Source: a virus. Taken from it: DNA of 40,956 nt. This document shows, piece by piece, positions 366-4,885 of this stretch. A program made the position numbers and the translations under genes. Positions within the stretch are counted from its first letter, which is position 1, and every line of letters begins with the position of its first letter. Location: the IMG/VR virus record IMGVR_UViG_3300045988_162559; one strand, written 5' to 3'. Under the pieces are notes generated by a model. It saw nothing but the letters and a program-made list of their open reading frames with translations. It was not told the DNA's origin and did not search any database.

Positions 366-3035
366 ATGGCAAATAAAACACAGGCACAAATAGAATTTAA
401 AGCTGTAACTTCGGATTTTAGGTCTGGTATAAGAGATATAAGCAAAGATATGACTACTTTTTCGAATGAATTGAGATTAAATGCTACTCAGTTAAAAGGA
501 AATTCAGACGATATAAATCTATTAGAACAAAGACAAAATATATTACAACAACAATATGCAGCATCAAGCCAAAAGGTAGAATTATTAAATCAATCATTAG
601 AACAGGCGAAAAATATACTTGGAGAAAACTCCAATGAATACAGAAATCTTAATAATGAGTTACTTAGAGCACAAACTCAACAACAAGCTATACAAAATGA
701 AATAAATCAAACATCACAAAGACTTAATGATTTAAGAAGTGCAAGTCAAGAAGCTGGACAAGAAATAGGACAGTTAGGAAATGATACAAATTCATTATCT
801 AGATTAACTACAGAAATAGATCAGCAACAACAAGAGTTAAATAGACTAAAAGAAGAATATAAAAATGTAGTATTAGAGCAAGGACAAAGTTCAAATGAAG
901 CTCAGCAATTAGCAAGTAGAATAGGACAGTTATCTAATGATTTAAGGGAAAACCAAAATAGATTGCATGAAGTTAGTAGTGCTGCTGATGAATTAGATAA
1001 CAGTTTAAATGATGCTGCAGATGGAGCACAAGAAGCTGGAAATGCACTAGAAGATGCATTAGCTATAGAAGGTGTAGACGAGTTAACAGATGCATTTAGT
1101 GGAATAGCAGACAGTGTAAAAGAATTTGGATTAGAAGGACAAAGTTCGCTTAATCAATTGCAAGCACAATTAGGGCTTACAAACGATGAAATGGGCGAAT
1201 TTGAAGGAATAATAAATGAAATTTATGCAGATAATTTTGGAGAATCACTATCAGATATAGGCGAGAATATGGCATTGGTACATCAAAACACAGGTTTAGC
1301 AGGAGAGGCGCTAAAACAATGTACAGAAGATGCATATCTTTTAAGTGATGTTTATGAAATTGACATAGCTGATAGTACAAAAGCAGCAGATGCATTAATG
1401 CAGAAGTTTGGACTTACAGCAGATGAAGCATATAATCTTATAGCACAGGGAGCAGAAAGCGGACTTAATAAAAATGATGATTTAATTGATGTAATTACGG
1501 AATATTCTCCTTCTTTTGCTAATGCAGGATATTCAGCTGAGGACATGTTTAATGCTCTTGCAAATGGGGCAGAGACAGGGGCATTTAGTGTAGACAGTTT
1601 AGGTGATGCATTTAAAGAAATGAATATAAGAATTATGGACGGTTCAGCCGATGATTATTTAAAAAAGTTAGGGTTTAATGCTGATGAGTTTCGTGAAAAA
1701 TATGCAAAAGGTGGAGATAGTGCTAAACAAGTCACACAGGAAATGATAGAGCGTTTAAGCAAAATGAAGGATAAGCAAGAACAATATAATGTAGGTGTTG
1801 GTATATTCGGAACAATGTACGAAGATAATGCTGCAGAAGCTATATTTGCGTTAGGAGATCTTAATGGAGAGATAGATAATTCTAGAGACAAATTAGGTGA
1901 AATGAACAAAGTCAAATATAATGACTTAGGAAGTGCACTTGAAGGAACGAAAAGAATATTACTTACAAACTTACAACCTGCGATAAGTGCAGTAACAAGT
2001 GGAATAACAACATTATTACAAAGTTTTGCTAATATGCCTAAACCTGTGCAACTGGTAATAACTGCTGTAGTAGCATTAGGAACGGCTTTTGTAGGAATAA
2101 CAACAGTTATAGGAATGGTTTCATCTGTAGCTGGAATATTTACATCGGGGTGGAGTGTTCTCACCGGGGTATTTGCAGCAGTTAAGACGAGAGTAATTGC
2201 AGCAACAGGTGCTATTGGAGCAATAAGTGCACCAGTTTTAATAGCAATAGGAGTTATAACAGCATTAGTTGCTATTGGTGTACTACTGTATCAAAATTGG
2301 GACACAGTAAAAGCAAAAGCAACAGAGGTTTGGAATGCAGTAAAAGACACTATATCTAATGTGTGGGAAGGAATTAAGAATGTATTTAGTACAGTATTAA
2401 GTGCTATACAAACAGCTATACAAATGTATTTTGATATGTATAAGACAATAATAGTTACTATTATAACTGCAATAAAGACAGTAGTAACAACAGGTTGGAA
2501 CGGAATAAAAGCAGTATTTACTACAGTTTTAAATGCAATTAAGTCAGTAGTATCAAATGCATTTAATGGTATTAAATCTACTATTACAACGATATTAAAT
2601 GCAGCTAGATCAGTTGTATCTAATGTTTGGAATGGAATAAAAAGTGTTGTAAGTAATGTATGTAGCGGTATATCAAGCACTGTATCAAATAAATTTAATT
2701 CAATTAAAAGTACTATATCTAATATAATGAATAGCGCTAAAAGTATAATGAGTAATATTTGGAATGGAATAAAGTCTACTGTAAGTAACGTTTGTGGAGG
2801 TATTACAAGTATAGTTTCTAATAAATTTAATGCAGTGAAAAATACAATATCTAATGTAATGAATAGTGCTAAAAATGTAGTATCAAATGGCATTAGTAAA
2901 ATAAAAGGATTTTTCTCAAATTGTCACTTAAGTTTCCCTAAAATAAAGCTACCTCATTTTTCAATTAGTGGAAAACTTAGTGTAAATCCTCCAAGTGTAC
3001 CCCATTTTAGCGTTAATTATGGCGCGGTAGCTTAG
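366..3035 (+). CDS. Tail tape measure protein, exon 1 (the last few codons of the ORF read into the intron)
   Basis: RBS AGGAGGGG precedes the ATG. Coiled-coil Q/N/E-rich N-terminus, a TP901-type TMP core (ADALMQKFGLT...ITEYSPSFANAGYS), a hydrophobic segment and three 44-aa WNGIK repeats. The ORF ends ...PPSVPHFSVN then YGAVA-stop, which lacks the usual TMP C-terminus. Confidence 0.9.
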   Translation: MANKTQAQIEFKAVTSDFRSGIRDISKDMTTFSNELRLNATQLKGNSDDINLLEQRQNILQQQYAASSQKVELLNQSLEQAKNILGENSNEYRNLNNELLRAQTQQQAIQNEINQTSQRLNDLRSASQEAGQEIGQLGNDTNSLSRLTTEIDQQQQELNRLKEEYKNVVLEQGQSSNEAQQLASRIGQLSNDLRENQNRLHEVSSAADELDNSLNDAADGAQEAGNALEDALAIEGVDELTDAFSGIADSVKEFGLEGQSSLNQLQAQLGLTNDEMGEFEGIINEIYADNFGESLSDIGENMALVHQNTGLAGEALKQCTEDAYLLSDVYEIDIADSTKAADALMQKFGLTADEAYNLIAQGAESGLNKNDDLIDVITEYSPSFANAGYSAEDMFNALANGAETGAFSVDSLGDAFKEMNIRIMDGSADDYLKKLGFNADEFREKYAKGGDSAKQVTQEMIERLSKMKDKQEQYNVGVGIFGTMYEDNAAEAIFALGDLNGEIDNSRDKLGEMNKVKYNDLGSALEGTKRILLTNLQPAISAVTSGITTLLQSFANMPKPVQLVITAVVALGTAFVGITTVIGMVSSVAGIFTSGWSVLTGVFAAVKTRVIAATGAIGAISAPVLIAIGVITALVAIGVLLYQNWDTVKAKATEVWNAVKDTISNVWEGIKNVFSTVLSAIQTAIQMYFDMYKTIIVTIITAIKTVVTTGWNGIKAVFTTVLNAIKSVVSNAFNGIKSTITTILNAARSVVSNVWNGIKSVVSNVCSGISSTVSNKFNSIKSTISNIMNSAKSIMSNIWNGIKSTVSNVCGGITSIVSNKFNAVKNTISNVMNSAKNVVSNGISKIKGFFSNCHLSFPKIKLPHFSISGKLSVNPPSVPHFSVNYGAVA
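2496..2891 (+). repeat. Three tandem 132-nt (44-aa) repeats inside the tape measure gene
   Basis: TGG of the WNGIK motif recurs at 2496, 2628 and 2760. Copies 2 and 3 are very similar (VSNVC[SG]GI[ST]S.VSNKFN..K.TISN.MNSAK). Confidence 0.85.
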
Positions 3036-3832
3036 AAATAAGTTATTAGAATCAACCAAAATCGGTCTGTTTAACAGATATATAATTAATAAATTAAGAA
3101 AGGAATGAAATATATTTATGATATATAGAATATACTGTCTTAAAAATGAATTAGATGAAATTGTTTATGTAGGTCAAACAAACAGAGAATTAAGTGTTAG
3201 ATTAAGTGAACATAAAAGAAGATTTGAAAATAGAAAATATTATACAATACATTTATTAGAAGAAACTACTGATTTAGATAAAGCTAATGAATTAGAAACA
3301 TATTATATTAAAAAATATAACACAGTTGAAAATGGTGAAAATATAACTTATGGAAAAGGTACTAAAAGTTTAGGTGCAAATGAAACTTCTTTTAAAAAAG
3401 GCAATACTTTTTGTAAAATGGGAACTAAAAAAGTAGAATGCATTGAAACTGGGGAAATATTTGATAGTATAACCGAATGTTCAAAAAAACTAAACCTAGA
3501 TGCTTCAAATATTAGTGCTGTTTGTAAAGGTAAAAGAAAGTCGACTGGTAATAAACATTTTAGATTTATTTAATTAATTATAAAGAGAGGCTAAAGCAAT
3601 TTATATTAAAATTGCTATGCTAATACCGAGGTAAACTAAGAAATTAAAAAGTCTTAGTCACTGTAACGCATAGGAGTTGAACCTATGCTTTTTTATTGGA
3701 AAAGTATAGAATAAAAGATTCCCACGAGTGGTTGACACCTTAATATTAAGTTAAAGGTGATGATATATGCTGAACTTATAGGAAACTATAAGAACTATAG
3801 GATAAAAAGCCTATAGGATAACAAATTGCAGT
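3014..3832 (+). mobile_element. Putative group I intron interrupting the tape measure gene (boundaries uncertain by a few nt)
   Basis: The TMP reading frame resumes at 3833 with WYKQGGIMTQPTIFG, and no start codon precedes the WY motif. The insert carries a GIY-YIG ORF flanked by non-coding sequence rich in stem-loops: gcaattt/aaattgc, actaag/cttagt, gcatagg/cctatgc, cttatag/ctataag and ctatagg/cctatag. Confidence 0.6.
3118..3573 (+). CDS. GIY-YIG homing endonuclease (intron-encoded), with a C-terminal NUMOD1/IENR1-like DNA-binding tail
   Basis: N-terminus MIYRIYCLKN...IVYVGQT...RLSEHK...ELETYYIKKYN...GEN fits GIY-YIG. The C-terminal KKVECIETGEIFDSITECSKKLN is typical of I-TevI-like enzymes. 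Confidence 0.8.
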   Translation: MIYRIYCLKNELDEIVYVGQTNRELSVRLSEHKRRFENRKYYTIHLLEETTDLDKANELETYYIKKYNTVENGENITYGKGTKSLGANETSFKKGNTFCKMGTKKVECIETGEIFDSITECSKKLNLDASNISAVCKGKRKSTGNKHFRFI

Positions 3833-4156
3833 TGGTACAAACAAGGCGGGATAATGACACAACCAACTATATTTGGAGTAAATGGTAATACTTTACTTGG
3901 TGGCGGAGAAATGGGAGGTAGAGGAGAGGCTATTCTTCCACTAGATAACTTTTATAATTATTTAGATTCAAAATTAGACAAATTTATTAGTGAAGATAAT
4001 ACAGCAAGTGAAGTCAGAAGGTTATCAAATATAGTTTCAAACTTAGAACTTAAATTAGATATAGATGGTAGAGAATTTACTAGAACTGCAGTAGCACCAA
4101 ATCAAGATGAATTAGATGATTATAATACAACTAGAAATATGAAATTAAAATACTAA
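3833..4156 (+). CDS. Tail tape measure protein, exon 2 (ORF track lists 3854..4156 from an internal Met)
   Basis: The frame is open from 3806. WYKQGGIMTQPTIFG...GEAILPL is the conserved extreme C-terminal TMP motif expected right after ...PHFSV(N) of exon 1. Confidence 0.7.
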   Translation, partial: WYKQGGIMTQPTIFGVNGNTLLGGGEMGGRGEAILPLDNFYNYLDSKLDKFISEDNTASEVRRLSNIVSNLELKLDIDGREFTRTAVAPNQDELDDYNTTRNMKLKY

Positions 4157-4174
4157 ATAAGAAGGAGGGGTAAA

Positions 4175-4885
4175 ATGGAAAAAAAATTAATATTTAATAA
4201 TATTTGTTCAGAAGAATTAGAAATAATAGTTGTTGAAGGCCCTCCAGAAGTGTTGTCAGAAGAAGAATATGAAGAAATAAGTATAGAAGGTAGAAATGGG
4301 ACAGTTACTATAAATAAAGGTACATTTCCAAATATAGAAAAGAGTTTTATTTTAACTACTATAAATTTAGATCAAGACATAAATCTAATGATAGAGAAGG
4401 TTAAAAAATGGTTATTTGATATAAAAGATAATAAATTATTATATTCAATTGAAAATAAATATAACATTGTAAAAAAAGTTATTATTGAGGAAGATATAAA
4501 AACAACATTTGAAGAATTTGGAGACTTTAAAGTTAAATTTATTTGTGAACCTTTTTATTATAATTTATTAGAAAAAAATATAATAGTAACACAAAAACAA
4601 ACGACTATATATAATAGTGGTGATTTTACAAGTGCCCCGAAGATAATTATATACGGAACAGGAGATTTACAGATAACGATTAACGATACTACTGTACAGA
4701 TTAATAATGTTGATGAAAGAGTTTTGCTAGATAGCAAACTTTTTTTATGCCTAGATAAAGATAATAATAATAAAAGTATAGATATGATAGGAAATTTCCC
4801 TTTGTTAGATAAAGGGGAAAATACTATAACATGGATAGGAAGTATAACCAAGTTAGACATAGAACCAAGGACTATTTATAGATAG
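4175..4885 (+). CDS. Distal tail protein (Dit, siphovirus tail family)
   Basis: Sits directly after the TMP and has RBS GGAGGGG. The size (236 aa) and the N-terminal IFNNI.SEELEI...ISIEGRNGT pattern fit Sipho_tail proteins. Confidence 0.7.
   Translation: MEKKLIFNNICSEELEIIVVEGPPEVLSEEEYEEISIEGRNGTVTINKGTFPNIEKSFILTTINLDQDINLMIEKVKKWLFDIKDNKLLYSIENKYNIVKKVIIEEDIKTTFEEFGDFKVKFICEPFYYNLLEKNIIVTQKQTTIYNSGDFTSAPKIIIYGTGDLQITINDTTVQINNVDERVLLDSKLFLCLDKDNNNKSIDMIGNFPLLDKGENTITWIGSITKLDIEPRTIYR

What the first reader, a model, noticed from the sequence alone, without database searches (positions are those of the whole stretch)
3014..3832. Tape measure gene split by a group I-like intron carrying a GIY-YIG homing endonuclease
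The 889-aa ORF stops right after ...PPSVPHFSVN. The motif that normally follows in tape measure proteins (WY.KGGI...PTIFG...GEA.LPL) reappears about 815 nt downstream. It is in an open frame from 3806 with no start codon before the WY.

The intervening DNA holds a GIY-YIG ORF (3118..3573). It is flanked by 82 nt and about 260 nt of non-coding sequence packed with 6-7-bp perfect stems, including a thrice-repeated TATAGGA element near the 3' end.

Splice junctions compatible with a 5'-exon terminal U and an intron-terminal G exist. U3013/G3831 gives ...HFSVWYKQGG and U3013/G3828 gives ...HFSVSWYKQGG. I cannot choose between them by eye.
Basis: partly seen in the sequence, partly recalled or inferred. 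Interest (0 to 1): 0.6.

Follow-up and report, generated by a model that had tools for sequence, protein, structure and literature searches.

The report
Group I intron in tape-measure gene
An 815-base mobile self-splicing-type RNA (a group I intron) that carries its own GIY-YIG DNA-cutting enzyme interrupts this phage's tail tape-measure gene; it is real and now mapped to the base, but such introns have been described in tape-measure genes since 2004-2008.

Summary

- **What it is:** Window 3014..3828 is a group I intron of subgroup IA. It splits the tape measure (TMP) gene into exon 1 (366..3013) and exon 2 (3829..4156).
- **Splice junction:** It is U3013|C3829, with G3828 as the terminal G, not G3831. 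More than 100 uninterrupted TMP homologues have the spacing and sequence this junction restores (..VPHFSVSWYKQGG..). The RNA conserved across relatives also ends at G3828.
- **RNA structure:** The 210-nt core recurs in about 100 phage records, always between the halves of a split gene. A hand-built model (P1-P9.1, P3/P7 pseudoknot) is 92.7% paired in 21 relatives, against 32-44% in shifted controls. 42 of 60 pairs show compensatory changes.
- **Rfam:** Rfam's group I model misses this subfamily. It does hit the related JCL1032 TMP intron, which the literature reports as self-splicing.
- **Endonuclease:** The 151-aa GIY-YIG gene keeps all catalytic residues and has dN/dS of about 0.2.
- **Recent homing:** A 94-95% identical phage contig without the intron shows the empty site and a co-conversion-like patch of divergence.
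- **Novelty:** This is a new member of a known kind. This scan has reported TMP introns on other DNA many times.
- **Minor extra:** The endonuclease cassette sits at the P4/J4-5 boundary and is shared by diverged ribozymes.

The parts
366..3013 (+). Tape measure gene, exon 1. The annotated-style ORF runs on into the intron to the TAG at 3033-3035.
   Evidence: PF10145. The junction is set.
3014..3828 (+). Group I intron, 815 nt, subgroup IA architecture
3010..3025 (+). P1. Exon bases GCGU (3010-3013) pair with the internal guide GCGC (3022-3025). U3013.G3022 is the wobble pair at the 5' splice site. The loop is 8 nt (3014-3021).
   Evidence: Read from the sequence. The same layout, re-tuned to the local exon, occurs in Javan355, phiCD211, 6ec, IMEP5 and L036.
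3028..3045 (+). P2 hairpin, 7 bp with a GAAA tetraloop
   Evidence: Equivalent hairpins capped by a tetraloop sit at the same place in relatives.
3052..3057 (+). P3 5' strand UCAACC. It pairs with GGUUGA at 3730-3735 across the ORF. J3/4 AAAA (3058-3061) follows.
   Evidence: All 6 P3 pairs show changes on both sides, and 96.8% of cells are paired.
3062..3066 (+). P4 5' strand UCGGU. It pairs with ACCGA at 3625-3629.
   Evidence: 100% of cells paired. Compensatory variants occur in 6ec (ACGAU/AUCGU) and CB452P1.
3067..3588 (+). Homing-endonuclease cassette: leader, ORF and trailer. It is inserted at the P4/J4-5 boundary. A 10-bp stem (3081-3090 with 3573-3582) closes it.
   Evidence: The cassette is 83-93% identical to that of L036, while the ribozyme is only about 50% identical. 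The stem is kept with changed bases in L036, L039 and L037/L038.
3118..3573 (+). GIY-YIG homing endonuclease gene, 151 aa, with a NUMOD-like DNA-binding tail
   Evidence: Pfam; a family of 150-159 aa proteins; catalytic Y6, Y17, G19, R28, E60, N72 invariant; dN/dS 0.20-0.21.
3589..3621 (+). P5 (GGC with GCU) plus the P5a hairpin 3596-3602/3609-3615
   Evidence: Hand assignment, by comparison with ORF-less relatives. Covariation was not counted.
3625..3661 (+). P4 3' strand (3625-3629), then P6 (3630-3631 with 3659 and 3661) and the P6a hairpin (3635-3640 with 3653-3658)
   Evidence: helices 2-4. All 6 P6a pairs show double changes.
3666..3672 (+). P7 5' strand: A3666, bulged C3667, then GCAUA. 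It pairs with UAUGCU at 3766-3771. G3668-C3770, next to the bulge, is the predicted guanosine-binding pair.
   Evidence: helix 5: 100% paired, with A-U/G-C and A-U/G-C covariation.
3673..3722 (+). P7.1 (3673-3677 with 3718-3722) enclosing the P7.1a hairpin (3683-3692 with 3700-3709). This extension marks subgroup IA.
   Evidence: helices 6-7. 4 of 5 P7.1 pairs show double changes.
3730..3759 (+). P3 3' strand GGUUGA (3730-3735), followed by the P8 hairpin (3736-3741 with 3754-3759)
   Evidence: helices 1 and 8.
3760..3771 (+). J8/7 (AUGAUA) and the P7 3' strand UAUGCU
   Evidence: The GAUGAUAUA form of J8/7 also occurs in the JCL1032 intron.
3775..3816 (+). P9 hairpin (3775-3781 with 3786-3792, GAAA loop) and P9.1 hairpin (3795-3801 with 3810-3816, conserved AUAAAAAG loop)
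   Evidence: helices 9-12. All 7 P9.1 pairs show double changes.
3817..3828 (+). Conserved 3' tail GAUAACAAAUUG, ending in the terminal guanosine G3828
   Evidence: conservation across 9 phage introns stops exactly at this G.
3829..4156 (+). Tape measure gene, exon 2 (C-terminal 109 codons, SWYKQGGIMTQPTIFG...GEAILPL...)
3002..3934 (+). Exon patch that differs from the intron-less sister phage: 3002-3013 and 3829-3934, on either side of the intron. It lies between stretches that are 100% identical. It is a candidate co-conversion tract left by homing.

Best explanation
Bases 3014..3828 are a mobile group I intron of subgroup IA in the tail tape measure gene of a 40.8-kb low-GC siphovirus.

**Splicing (inferred).** The tape measure gene is transcribed through the intron. 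The RNA then folds into the group I core:
- P1 has the U3013.G3022 wobble pair, followed by P2.
- The P3/P7 pseudoknot forms, with P4-P6 alongside.
- A P7.1/P7.1a extension, P8, P9 and P9.1 complete the fold.

An external guanosine docked at the G3668-C3770 pair of P7 attacks after U3013. The terminal G3828 then takes its place. The exons are joined 3013|3829, giving a 991-aa tape measure protein reading ...PPSVPHFSV-SWYKQGGIMTQPTIFG...

**Mobility (inferred).** The intron carries a 151-aa GIY-YIG endonuclease gene (3118..3573) in a stem-closed cassette at the P4/J4-5 boundary. The enzyme should cut intron-less tape measure alleles during co-infection. Repair from the intron-bearing copy would then copy in the intron together with flanking exon sequence.

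**Shown versus inferred.** Shown here are the anatomy, the covariation, the exact junction, the empty site and the selection acting on the endonuclease. Catalysis and homing are inferred from family membership.
For: **1. A conserved RNA between halves of split genes.** Window 3616..3828 is 70-82% identical to non-coding DNA in about 100 phage records. In those records it lies just before the second half of a split gene:
- tape measure in 6ec, Javan355 and phiCD211;
- large terminase in BE02, TPWB06 and IMEP5;
- a RecD-like helicase in PJN02.

**2. Covariation.** On 21 sequences the model is 92.7% paired, against 32-44% when partners are slid by 1-3 columns. 42 of 60 pairs show changes on both sides, and 0 of 500 shuffles reach the observed values. 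P3 pairs across 559-905 nt of ORF in the ORF-bearing members.

**3. Splice-site helices in relatives.** P1 is re-tuned to each intron's own 5' exon, always with U.G at the splice site. P10 is clear in 6ec, Javan355 and phiCD211.

**4. The 3' end.** Conservation ends exactly at G3828.

**5. The junction restores the protein.** Joining 3013|3829 gives VP-HFSVS-WYK. This is the spacing in about 110 of the 120 best uninterrupted TMP homologues, out of 7641 hits.

**6. An empty site exists.** Phage contig L032 is 94-95% identical and lacks the intron. It aligns without a gap to the spliced sequence.

**7. A link to a recognised group I intron.** The 3' half of the JCL1032 TMP intron matches the window's intron (81.7% by blastn; nhmmer E = 1.7e-18). 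That intron scores 59.4 bits on Rfam RF00028, above the threshold of 50. It is cited as proven to self-splice (Riipinen & Alatossava 2004, cited in PMC6669764).

**8. No sign of decay.** The window departs from family-conserved positions at 4 of 81, and the range among members is 1-10.

**9. The endonuclease is maintained.** The catalytic residues are invariant, dN/dS is 0.2, and the relatives of 51% identity or more are almost all 150-159 aa long.
Against:
- **No Rfam hit.** RF00028 gives nothing on the window even at E <= 10. It also gives nothing on an ORF-less member of the same subfamily, phiCD211 2454-2723.
- **Weak P10.** In the window P10 is only 4 bp and offset by one base (hand reading).
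- **Unusual cassette position.** The endonuclease cassette interrupts the P4/J4-5 boundary, next to the junction that docks the splice-site wobble pair, not a terminal loop. This could slow folding.
- **Partly circular evidence for P3/P4.** Two of the 21 rows (6ec, CB452P1) had their P3/P4 5' strands located using the expected complement. In rows with several motif candidates I chose the one that paired.
Confidence: 0.9

Rival explanations
1. The intron is a dead relic. It no longer splices, and the phage makes the tape measure as two polypeptides: 889 aa ending ...HFSVNYGAVA, plus a 100-aa piece translated from ATG 3854.
For: An ATG at 3854 is preceded by AAGG 7 nt upstream. Rfam gives no hit. 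The cassette lies at the P4/J4-5 boundary, an awkward place.
Against: - Every core helix is a standard pair in the window.
- Only 4 of 81 family-conserved positions differ, which is typical of members.
- The ATG and the AAGG are simply the codons of the conserved KQGGIM motif. They are also present in intron-less homologues.
- The same cassette position is kept in at least three other introns.
- The divergent patch next to identical flanks suggests recent acquisition rather than old decay.
Confidence: 0.05
2. The intron splices, but at the reader's other junction: G3831 as the terminal base, giving ...HFSVWYKQGG.
For: G3831 is also a G, and joining there is in frame.
Against: - This junction makes the motif one residue shorter than in about 110 of 120 uninterrupted homologues.
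- RNA conservation across 9 relatives stops at G3828.
- The intron-less sister phage L032 aligns without a gap only with 3013|3829.
Confidence: 0.03
3. A free-standing homing endonuclease gene has split the tape measure gene, and the flanking structured DNA is unrelated to splicing (for example terminators or regulatory hairpins).
For: Free-standing endonuclease genes that split phage genes are known (established knowledge).
Against: - The flanks form a covarying pseudoknotted group I core.
- That core also exists without any ORF, in phiCD211 and in L019, L020 and other IMG/VR contigs.
- The core is homologous to an intron that Rfam recognises.
Confidence: 0.02

Closest known systems
Group I intron in the tape measure gene (ORF17) of Lactobacillus delbrueckii phage JCL1032 (Riipinen & Alatossava 2004, cited in PMC6669764 and PMC2504315)
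   Same: - The host gene is the same kind.
- The P3'-P8-J8/7-P7'-P9-P9.1-tail is homologous (81.7% over 102 nt; nhmmer E = 1.7e-18).
- The J8/7 variant GAUGAUAUA is the same.
- The CDS is annotated as joined in the record.
- Rfam recognises it as group I.
   Different: - JCL1032's intron is about 300 nt and has no ORF.
- It sits at another TMP position.
- It has the canonical GACUA/UAGUC P7, whereas the window has GCAUA/UAUGC.
- The 5' half is not alignable by nhmmer.
TMP-IVS1/2/3 and term-IVS1 group I introns of Bacillus cereus-group prophages (Tourasse & Kolsto 2008, PMC2504315)
   Same: - They are subgroup IA (IA1/IA2) introns in tape measure and terminase genes of Firmicute prophages.
- Homologous ribozymes carry either GIY-YIG or HNH endonucleases.
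- P1 is re-tuned to different homing sites.
- They show exon co-conversion.
   Different: The hosts and insertion sites differ. I did not align those Bacillus sequences directly with the window. In that paper the endonuclease position is described only as a domain loop.
Phage T4 td intron with I-TevI
   Same: It is a subgroup IA intron in a phage gene and encodes a GIY-YIG endonuclease with a separate DNA-binding tail. It moves by double-strand-break repair with co-conversion (established knowledge).
   Different: - I-TevI is 245 aa (from memory) and lies in the P6a loop; here the enzyme is 151 aa and lies at the P4/J4-5 boundary.
- There is no detectable sequence similarity to any solved structure.
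- td has P7.1 and P7.2 side by side (from memory), whereas here P7.1a is nested in P7.1.
Unannotated sister introns in Staphylococcus phage 6ec, Streptococcus phage Javan355, C. difficile phage phiCD211, and in contig L036
   Same: The ribozyme subfamily is the same (70-82% identity), and the host gene is the tape measure gene. L036 carries the same endonuclease cassette, with the protein 76% identical.
   Different: - They are inserted at other TMP codons. L036 sits 35 codons further on, at G|EAILP.
- 6ec and Javan355 carry HNH-type endonucleases in the P5 loop, and the phiCD211 copy has no ORF.
- The records annotate split genes, not introns.

Membership tests
Group I intron | Conserved core of paired regions P3-P9, with a P3/P7 pseudoknot and a P4-P6 domain | tested here: met
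   60 pairs are 92.7% paired, against 32-44% in slid controls. 42 pairs show compensatory change. P3 is 96.8% paired, and P4 and P7 are each 100% paired.
Group I intron | The 5' splice site follows a U that forms a U.G wobble pair with the internal guide sequence in P1 | tested here: met
   U3013.G3022 sits on top of three G-C/C-G pairs. The same arrangement, re-tuned to each exon, is found in five relatives.
Group I intron | The intron ends in a guanosine (omega G) | tested here: met
   G3828 is the last conserved base in 9 aligned phage introns. It gives the junction that protein homologues demand.
Group I intron | Guanosine-binding site: a G-C pair in P7 next to a bulged nucleotide | tested here: met
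   The arrangement is A3666-U3771, bulged C3667, then G3668-C3770. The G-C pair is invariant in 21 of 21 sequences, and the closing pair covaries A-U/G-C. That it binds guanosine is inferred.
Group I intron | Score at or above the gathering threshold of Rfam RF00028 | tested here: not met
   No hit at E <= 10 on the window or on an ORF-less sister. The related JCL1032 intron scores 59.4 bits against a threshold of 50. This is a limit of the model, not a defining biological feature.
Group I intron | Self-splicing with guanosine, and ligated exons in vivo | not testable with these tools
There is no bench.
Subgroup IA | An extra P7.1 (with P7.1a or P7.2) between the 5' strand of P7 and the 3' strand of P3 | tested here: met
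   P7.1 (3673-3677 with 3718-3722) has 4 of 5 pairs with double changes and encloses hairpin 3683-3709. The choice between IA1 and IA2 rests on recalled definitions and was not tested.
GIY-YIG homing endonuclease | GIY-YIG catalytic domain with conserved Tyr, Tyr-x-Gly, Arg, Glu and Asn | tested here: met
   PF01541 scores 29.6 bits, above the 22.6 cut-off. Y6, Y17, G19, R28, E60 and N72 are invariant in 17 relatives.
GIY-YIG homing endonuclease | A separate DNA-binding module | tested here: met
   PF22083, the I-HmuI NUMOD-like domain, scores 35.7 bits, above the 27 cut-off, at residues 114-144.
GIY-YIG homing endonuclease | Cleaves the intron-less allele and promotes homing | not testable with these tools
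   The support is indirect only: an empty site in L032 and a divergent exon patch flanking the intron.

The most novel reading that the evidence does not exclude
The GIY-YIG gene and its stem-closed leader and trailer (3067..3588) may be a mobile cassette in its own right. On this reading it homes into the ribozyme DNA at the P4/J4-5 boundary (UCGGU^GA[A/G]AGGCU) and does not only travel with the intron, or it does both. That would explain two facts. Near-identical cassettes (83-93% nt identity) sit at exactly the same structural position in ribozymes that are only about 50% identical. Those ribozymes are inserted at different sites, in tape measure genes and in at least one unidentified host gene. 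If so, the enzyme's recognition site would lie in conserved intron core DNA, a form of intron-in-intron homing.
Probability: 0.2. Interest if true: 0.5.

Novelty: new member of a known kind. Interest (0 to 1): 0.2.

Why it matters
- **Annotation.** The phage has one 991-aa tape measure protein, not an 889-aa protein plus an orphan 100-aa ORF. Tail length scales with this protein, so the correct length matters for predictions.
- **Other records.** The same subfamily is left unannotated in about 100 deposited phage genomes, where tape measure, terminase and helicase genes are recorded as split. Rfam's RF00028 does not detect it, so automated pipelines will keep missing it. The alignment made here could seed a better model.
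- **Biology.** The find is another example of well-described behaviour: IA introns in late genes of Firmicute phages, interchangeable endonuclease cargo, P1 re-tuning and co-conversion.
- **The less usual point.** The endonuclease cassette sits at the P4/J4-5 boundary and appears to move between ribozymes.

Tried and rejected
**Steps that led nowhere**
- **Rfam.** Rfam 15 covariance models gave no group I hit on window 2700..4200 at E <= 10. None appeared at the gathering threshold on the window plus 8 related loci. This reflects a gap in the model: the same search recognises JCL1032's intron and a second, different intron in phiCD211.
- **Own genome.** The window's own assembly is not held. 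The nearest record, G001, is 100% identical over 2500-4400, so it gives no empty site.
- **Solved structures.** A PDB sequence search with the endonuclease found nothing at E <= 1.
- **Covariance model.** I did not build one. An nhmmer profile of the core served instead, and it found only one copy in the window.

**Readings rejected**
- **An intein:** the insert holds stop codons in the TMP frame and a separate ORF with its own start.
- **A group II intron:** the insert is too short and has no reverse transcriptase or domain V.
- **Translational bypass:** 815 nt is far too long.
- **My first hand assignment:** I took GCAUAGG...CCUAUGC as a hairpin. Covariation showed that GGAGU pairs with GAUUCC (P7.1) and GCAUA pairs with UAUGC (P7).


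Full report
**What is in the sequence**

The window is a closed phage genome of about 40.8 kb. Its ends are identical over 119 bases, and its G+C content is 29%.

- ORF 366..3035 encodes 889 aa with a PhageMin_Tail domain. It ends ...PPSVPHFSVNYGAVA*.
- ORF 3118..3573 encodes a 151-aa protein. It matches the GIY-YIG domain and the I-HmuI NUMOD-like DNA-binding domain, both above Pfam's cut-offs.
- From 3806 another frame is open. It encodes WYKQGGIMTQPTIFG...GEAILPL... up to 4156, and its first ATG is at 3854.
- The three TATAGGA copies are at 3777, 3796 and 3812.

**A conserved RNA, missed by Rfam**

Rfam 15 gave no group I match on 2700..4200, even at E <= 10. However, blastn against phage records showed that window 3616..3828 is 70-82% identical to non-coding DNA in about 100 records. 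The hosts include Staphylococcus, Clostridioides, Clostridium, Streptococcus and Bacillus.

In every record I opened, the element lies just upstream of the second half of a split gene, and in most it follows an endonuclease ORF:
- tape measure in 6ec, Javan355 and phiCD211;
- large terminase in BE02, TPWB06 and IMEP5;
- a RecD-like helicase in PJN02.

In the nine-way alignment, conservation stops exactly at ...GAUAACAAAUUG. In the window that final base is G3828.

**Structure**

Covariation in that alignment corrected my first hand fold. The model in window coordinates is as follows.

| Element | Coordinates and pairing |
|---|---|
| P1 | 3010-3013 with 3022-3025; U3013.G3022 wobble |
| P2 | 3028-3034 with 3039-3045; GAAA loop |
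| P3 | 3052-3057 with 3730-3735 |
| J3/4 | AAAA, 3058-3061 |
| P4 | 3062-3066 with 3625-3629 |
| P5/P5a | 3589-3621 |
| P6/P6a | 3630-3661 |
| P7 | A3666, bulged C3667, 3668-3672 with 3766-3771 |
| P7.1 | 3673-3677 with 3718-3722; encloses hairpin 3683-3709 |
| P8 | 3736-3759 |
| P9 | 3775-3792; GAAA loop |
| P9.1 | 3795-3816 |
| 3' tail | 3817-3828, ending in G3828 |

I collected 22 further loci from IMG/VR with a degenerate pattern and located the cores with an nhmmer profile. In each I found the J3/4-P4 motif upstream. It lay 18-31 nt away in ORF-less members and 559-905 nt away in ORF-bearing ones.

I then aligned 21 distinct composite sequences (P3 5' strand, J3/4, P4 5' strand, then P4 3' strand to the terminal G; alignment A2). 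The results were as follows.
- 92.7% of cells are paired, against 32-44% when the 3' partners are slid by 1-3 columns.
- 42 of 60 pairs show changes on both sides.
- None of 500 shuffles reaches any observed measure.
- P3 has 6 of 6 covarying pairs across the ORF.
- P7 is 100% paired, with A-U/G-C swaps.

There is a caveat. For 6ec and CB452P1 the upstream strands were found using the expected complement. Where several motif candidates existed, I chose the one that paired.

**Splice sites**

In the relatives, P1 always pairs the last 4-6 exon bases with an intron guide sequence. That guide lies about 8 nt further on and starts with the G of a U.G pair. The guide differs from intron to intron to match its own exon (L036). 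P10 is obvious in 6ec (8 bp), Javan355 and phiCD211 (5 bp each). In the window it is weak: 4 bp, offset by one base.

Joining 3013|3829 gives ...VPHFSVSWYKQGG.... Joining at G3831 gives a protein one residue shorter. A search with the spliced C-terminal region returned 7641 uninterrupted homologues. About 110 of the 120 best show VP-x5-WYK, and many read literally VPHLSVSWYKEGG. The junction is therefore U3013|C3829.

**Empty site and signs of homing**

Contig L032 carries a phage 94-95% identical to the window across 6 kb, with an uninterrupted 945-aa tape measure gene. BLAST alignment breaks at window 3001 and resumes at 3833. The spliced window aligns to L032 without a gap.

Identity is 100% over 2860-3001 and nearly 100% over 3935-4175. 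It drops to 45-85% per 20-nt bin over 3002-3013 and over most of 3829-3934, apart from one identical bin at 3855-3874. Such a patch hugging an intron is what co-conversion during endonuclease-driven homing leaves behind. That concept is described for Bacillus introns in PMC2504315. The window's guide sequence matches its own, converted exon and not L032's.

**State of the ribozyme and the endonuclease**

The window departs from positions conserved in at least 17 of the 20 other members at only 4 of 81. The family range is 1-10. Two of the four lie in J8/7, which reads GAUGAUA. The JCL1032 intron has the same J8/7.

For the endonuclease:
- The closer relatives (51-99% identity) are almost all 150-159 aa long.
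- The GIY-YIG catalytic residues Y6, Y17, G19, R28, E60 and N72 are invariant.
- dN/dS against two relatives is 0.20-0.21.

Both parts look functional.

**Where the endonuclease sits**

By comparison with ORF-less relatives (...AAAAUCGGU-GAAGGCU...), the cassette 3067..3588 is inserted right after the 5' strand of P4, ahead of J4/5 and P5. A 10-bp stem (3081-3090 with 3573-3582) closes it. About 1.6% of shuffles give such a stem by chance.

The same cassette at the same structural position occurs in three more introns: L036, L039 and L037/L038. In each, the closing stem is kept with changed bases.

Between the window and L036 the identities are as follows:
- cassette leader 86%;
- ORF 83%;
- cassette trailer 93%;
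- ribozyme halves only 50-53%.

L036's intron sits 35 codons further along the tape measure gene, at G|EAILP. This points to transfer of the cassette between ribozymes or to recombination within conserved core sequence. Relatives such as 6ec and CB452P1 carry other ORFs (HNH-type in 6ec) in the P5 loop instead.

**Comparison with what is known**

- The JCL1032 tape measure CDS is annotated as a join. [quoted passage not shown]
- That intron scores 59.4 bits on RF00028, and its 3' half is homologous to the window's intron.
- Tourasse & Kolsto 2008 (PMC2504315) describe IA1/IA2 introns at three sites in tape measure genes of Bacillus prophages. They report homologous ribozymes carrying either GIY-YIG or HNH genes, P1 adaptation and co-conversion.
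- Cluster J mycobacteriophages have spliced introns in tail genes (PMC3706429).
- This scan has already reported tape measure introns on other DNA many times. Three of those earlier reports share sequence words with this core.

**Verdict**

The finding is a genuine group I intron of subgroup IA with an intact GIY-YIG homing endonuclease. It is a new member of a known kind. The junction is fixed at 3013|3829. Interest is low. The Rfam blind spot for this subfamily and the cassette at P4/J4-5 are the only points beyond routine.

Noticed in passing
L003 (phiCD211) 2454-3037: The phiCD211 tape measure gene is interrupted by two different group I introns only 24 nt apart. An ORF-less member of the window's subfamily ends at 2723. 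A canonical-P7 intron lies at 2748-3012 (RF00028 41.7 bits, below the threshold of 50). The record annotates only the second as Intron_gpI and records the gene as two CDSs.
   Followed up: partly
L005 (Arcanobacterium phage TPWB06) 1327-1511 and 2496-2699; L012 with three nhmmer hits: Several copies of this intron subfamily occur within a single gene region. The TPWB06 large terminase is cut into at least three pieces. The records annotate split genes and small hypothetical ORFs.
   Followed up: no
window 3002-3013 and 3829-3934, compared with L032: A patch of 45-85% identity hugs the intron, between exon stretches that are 100% identical to an intron-less sister phage. It looks like a co-conversion tract. 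Its downstream end (about 3934) lies close to the site (G|EAILP, about 3926) where the L036 sister intron is inserted.
   Followed up: partly
41 of 45 bases are identical, and it encodes KKVECIETGEIFDSI at the start of the DNA-binding tail.
   Followed up: partly
L037 and L038 2380-3100: A 152-aa relative of the endonuclease (72% identity) sits in a more diverged structured element. That element has the same UCGGUG...CACCGA P4 and an 11-bp stem closing the ORF. The nhmmer core profile does not detect it. L038 has an IS605 OrfB/Cas12f-like gene just upstream.
   Followed up: no
window 2505-2584 compared with L032 5207-5285; window 2496-2891: The tape measure genes of the window (991 aa spliced) and of L032 (945 aa) differ by one internal repeat unit.
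   Followed up: no
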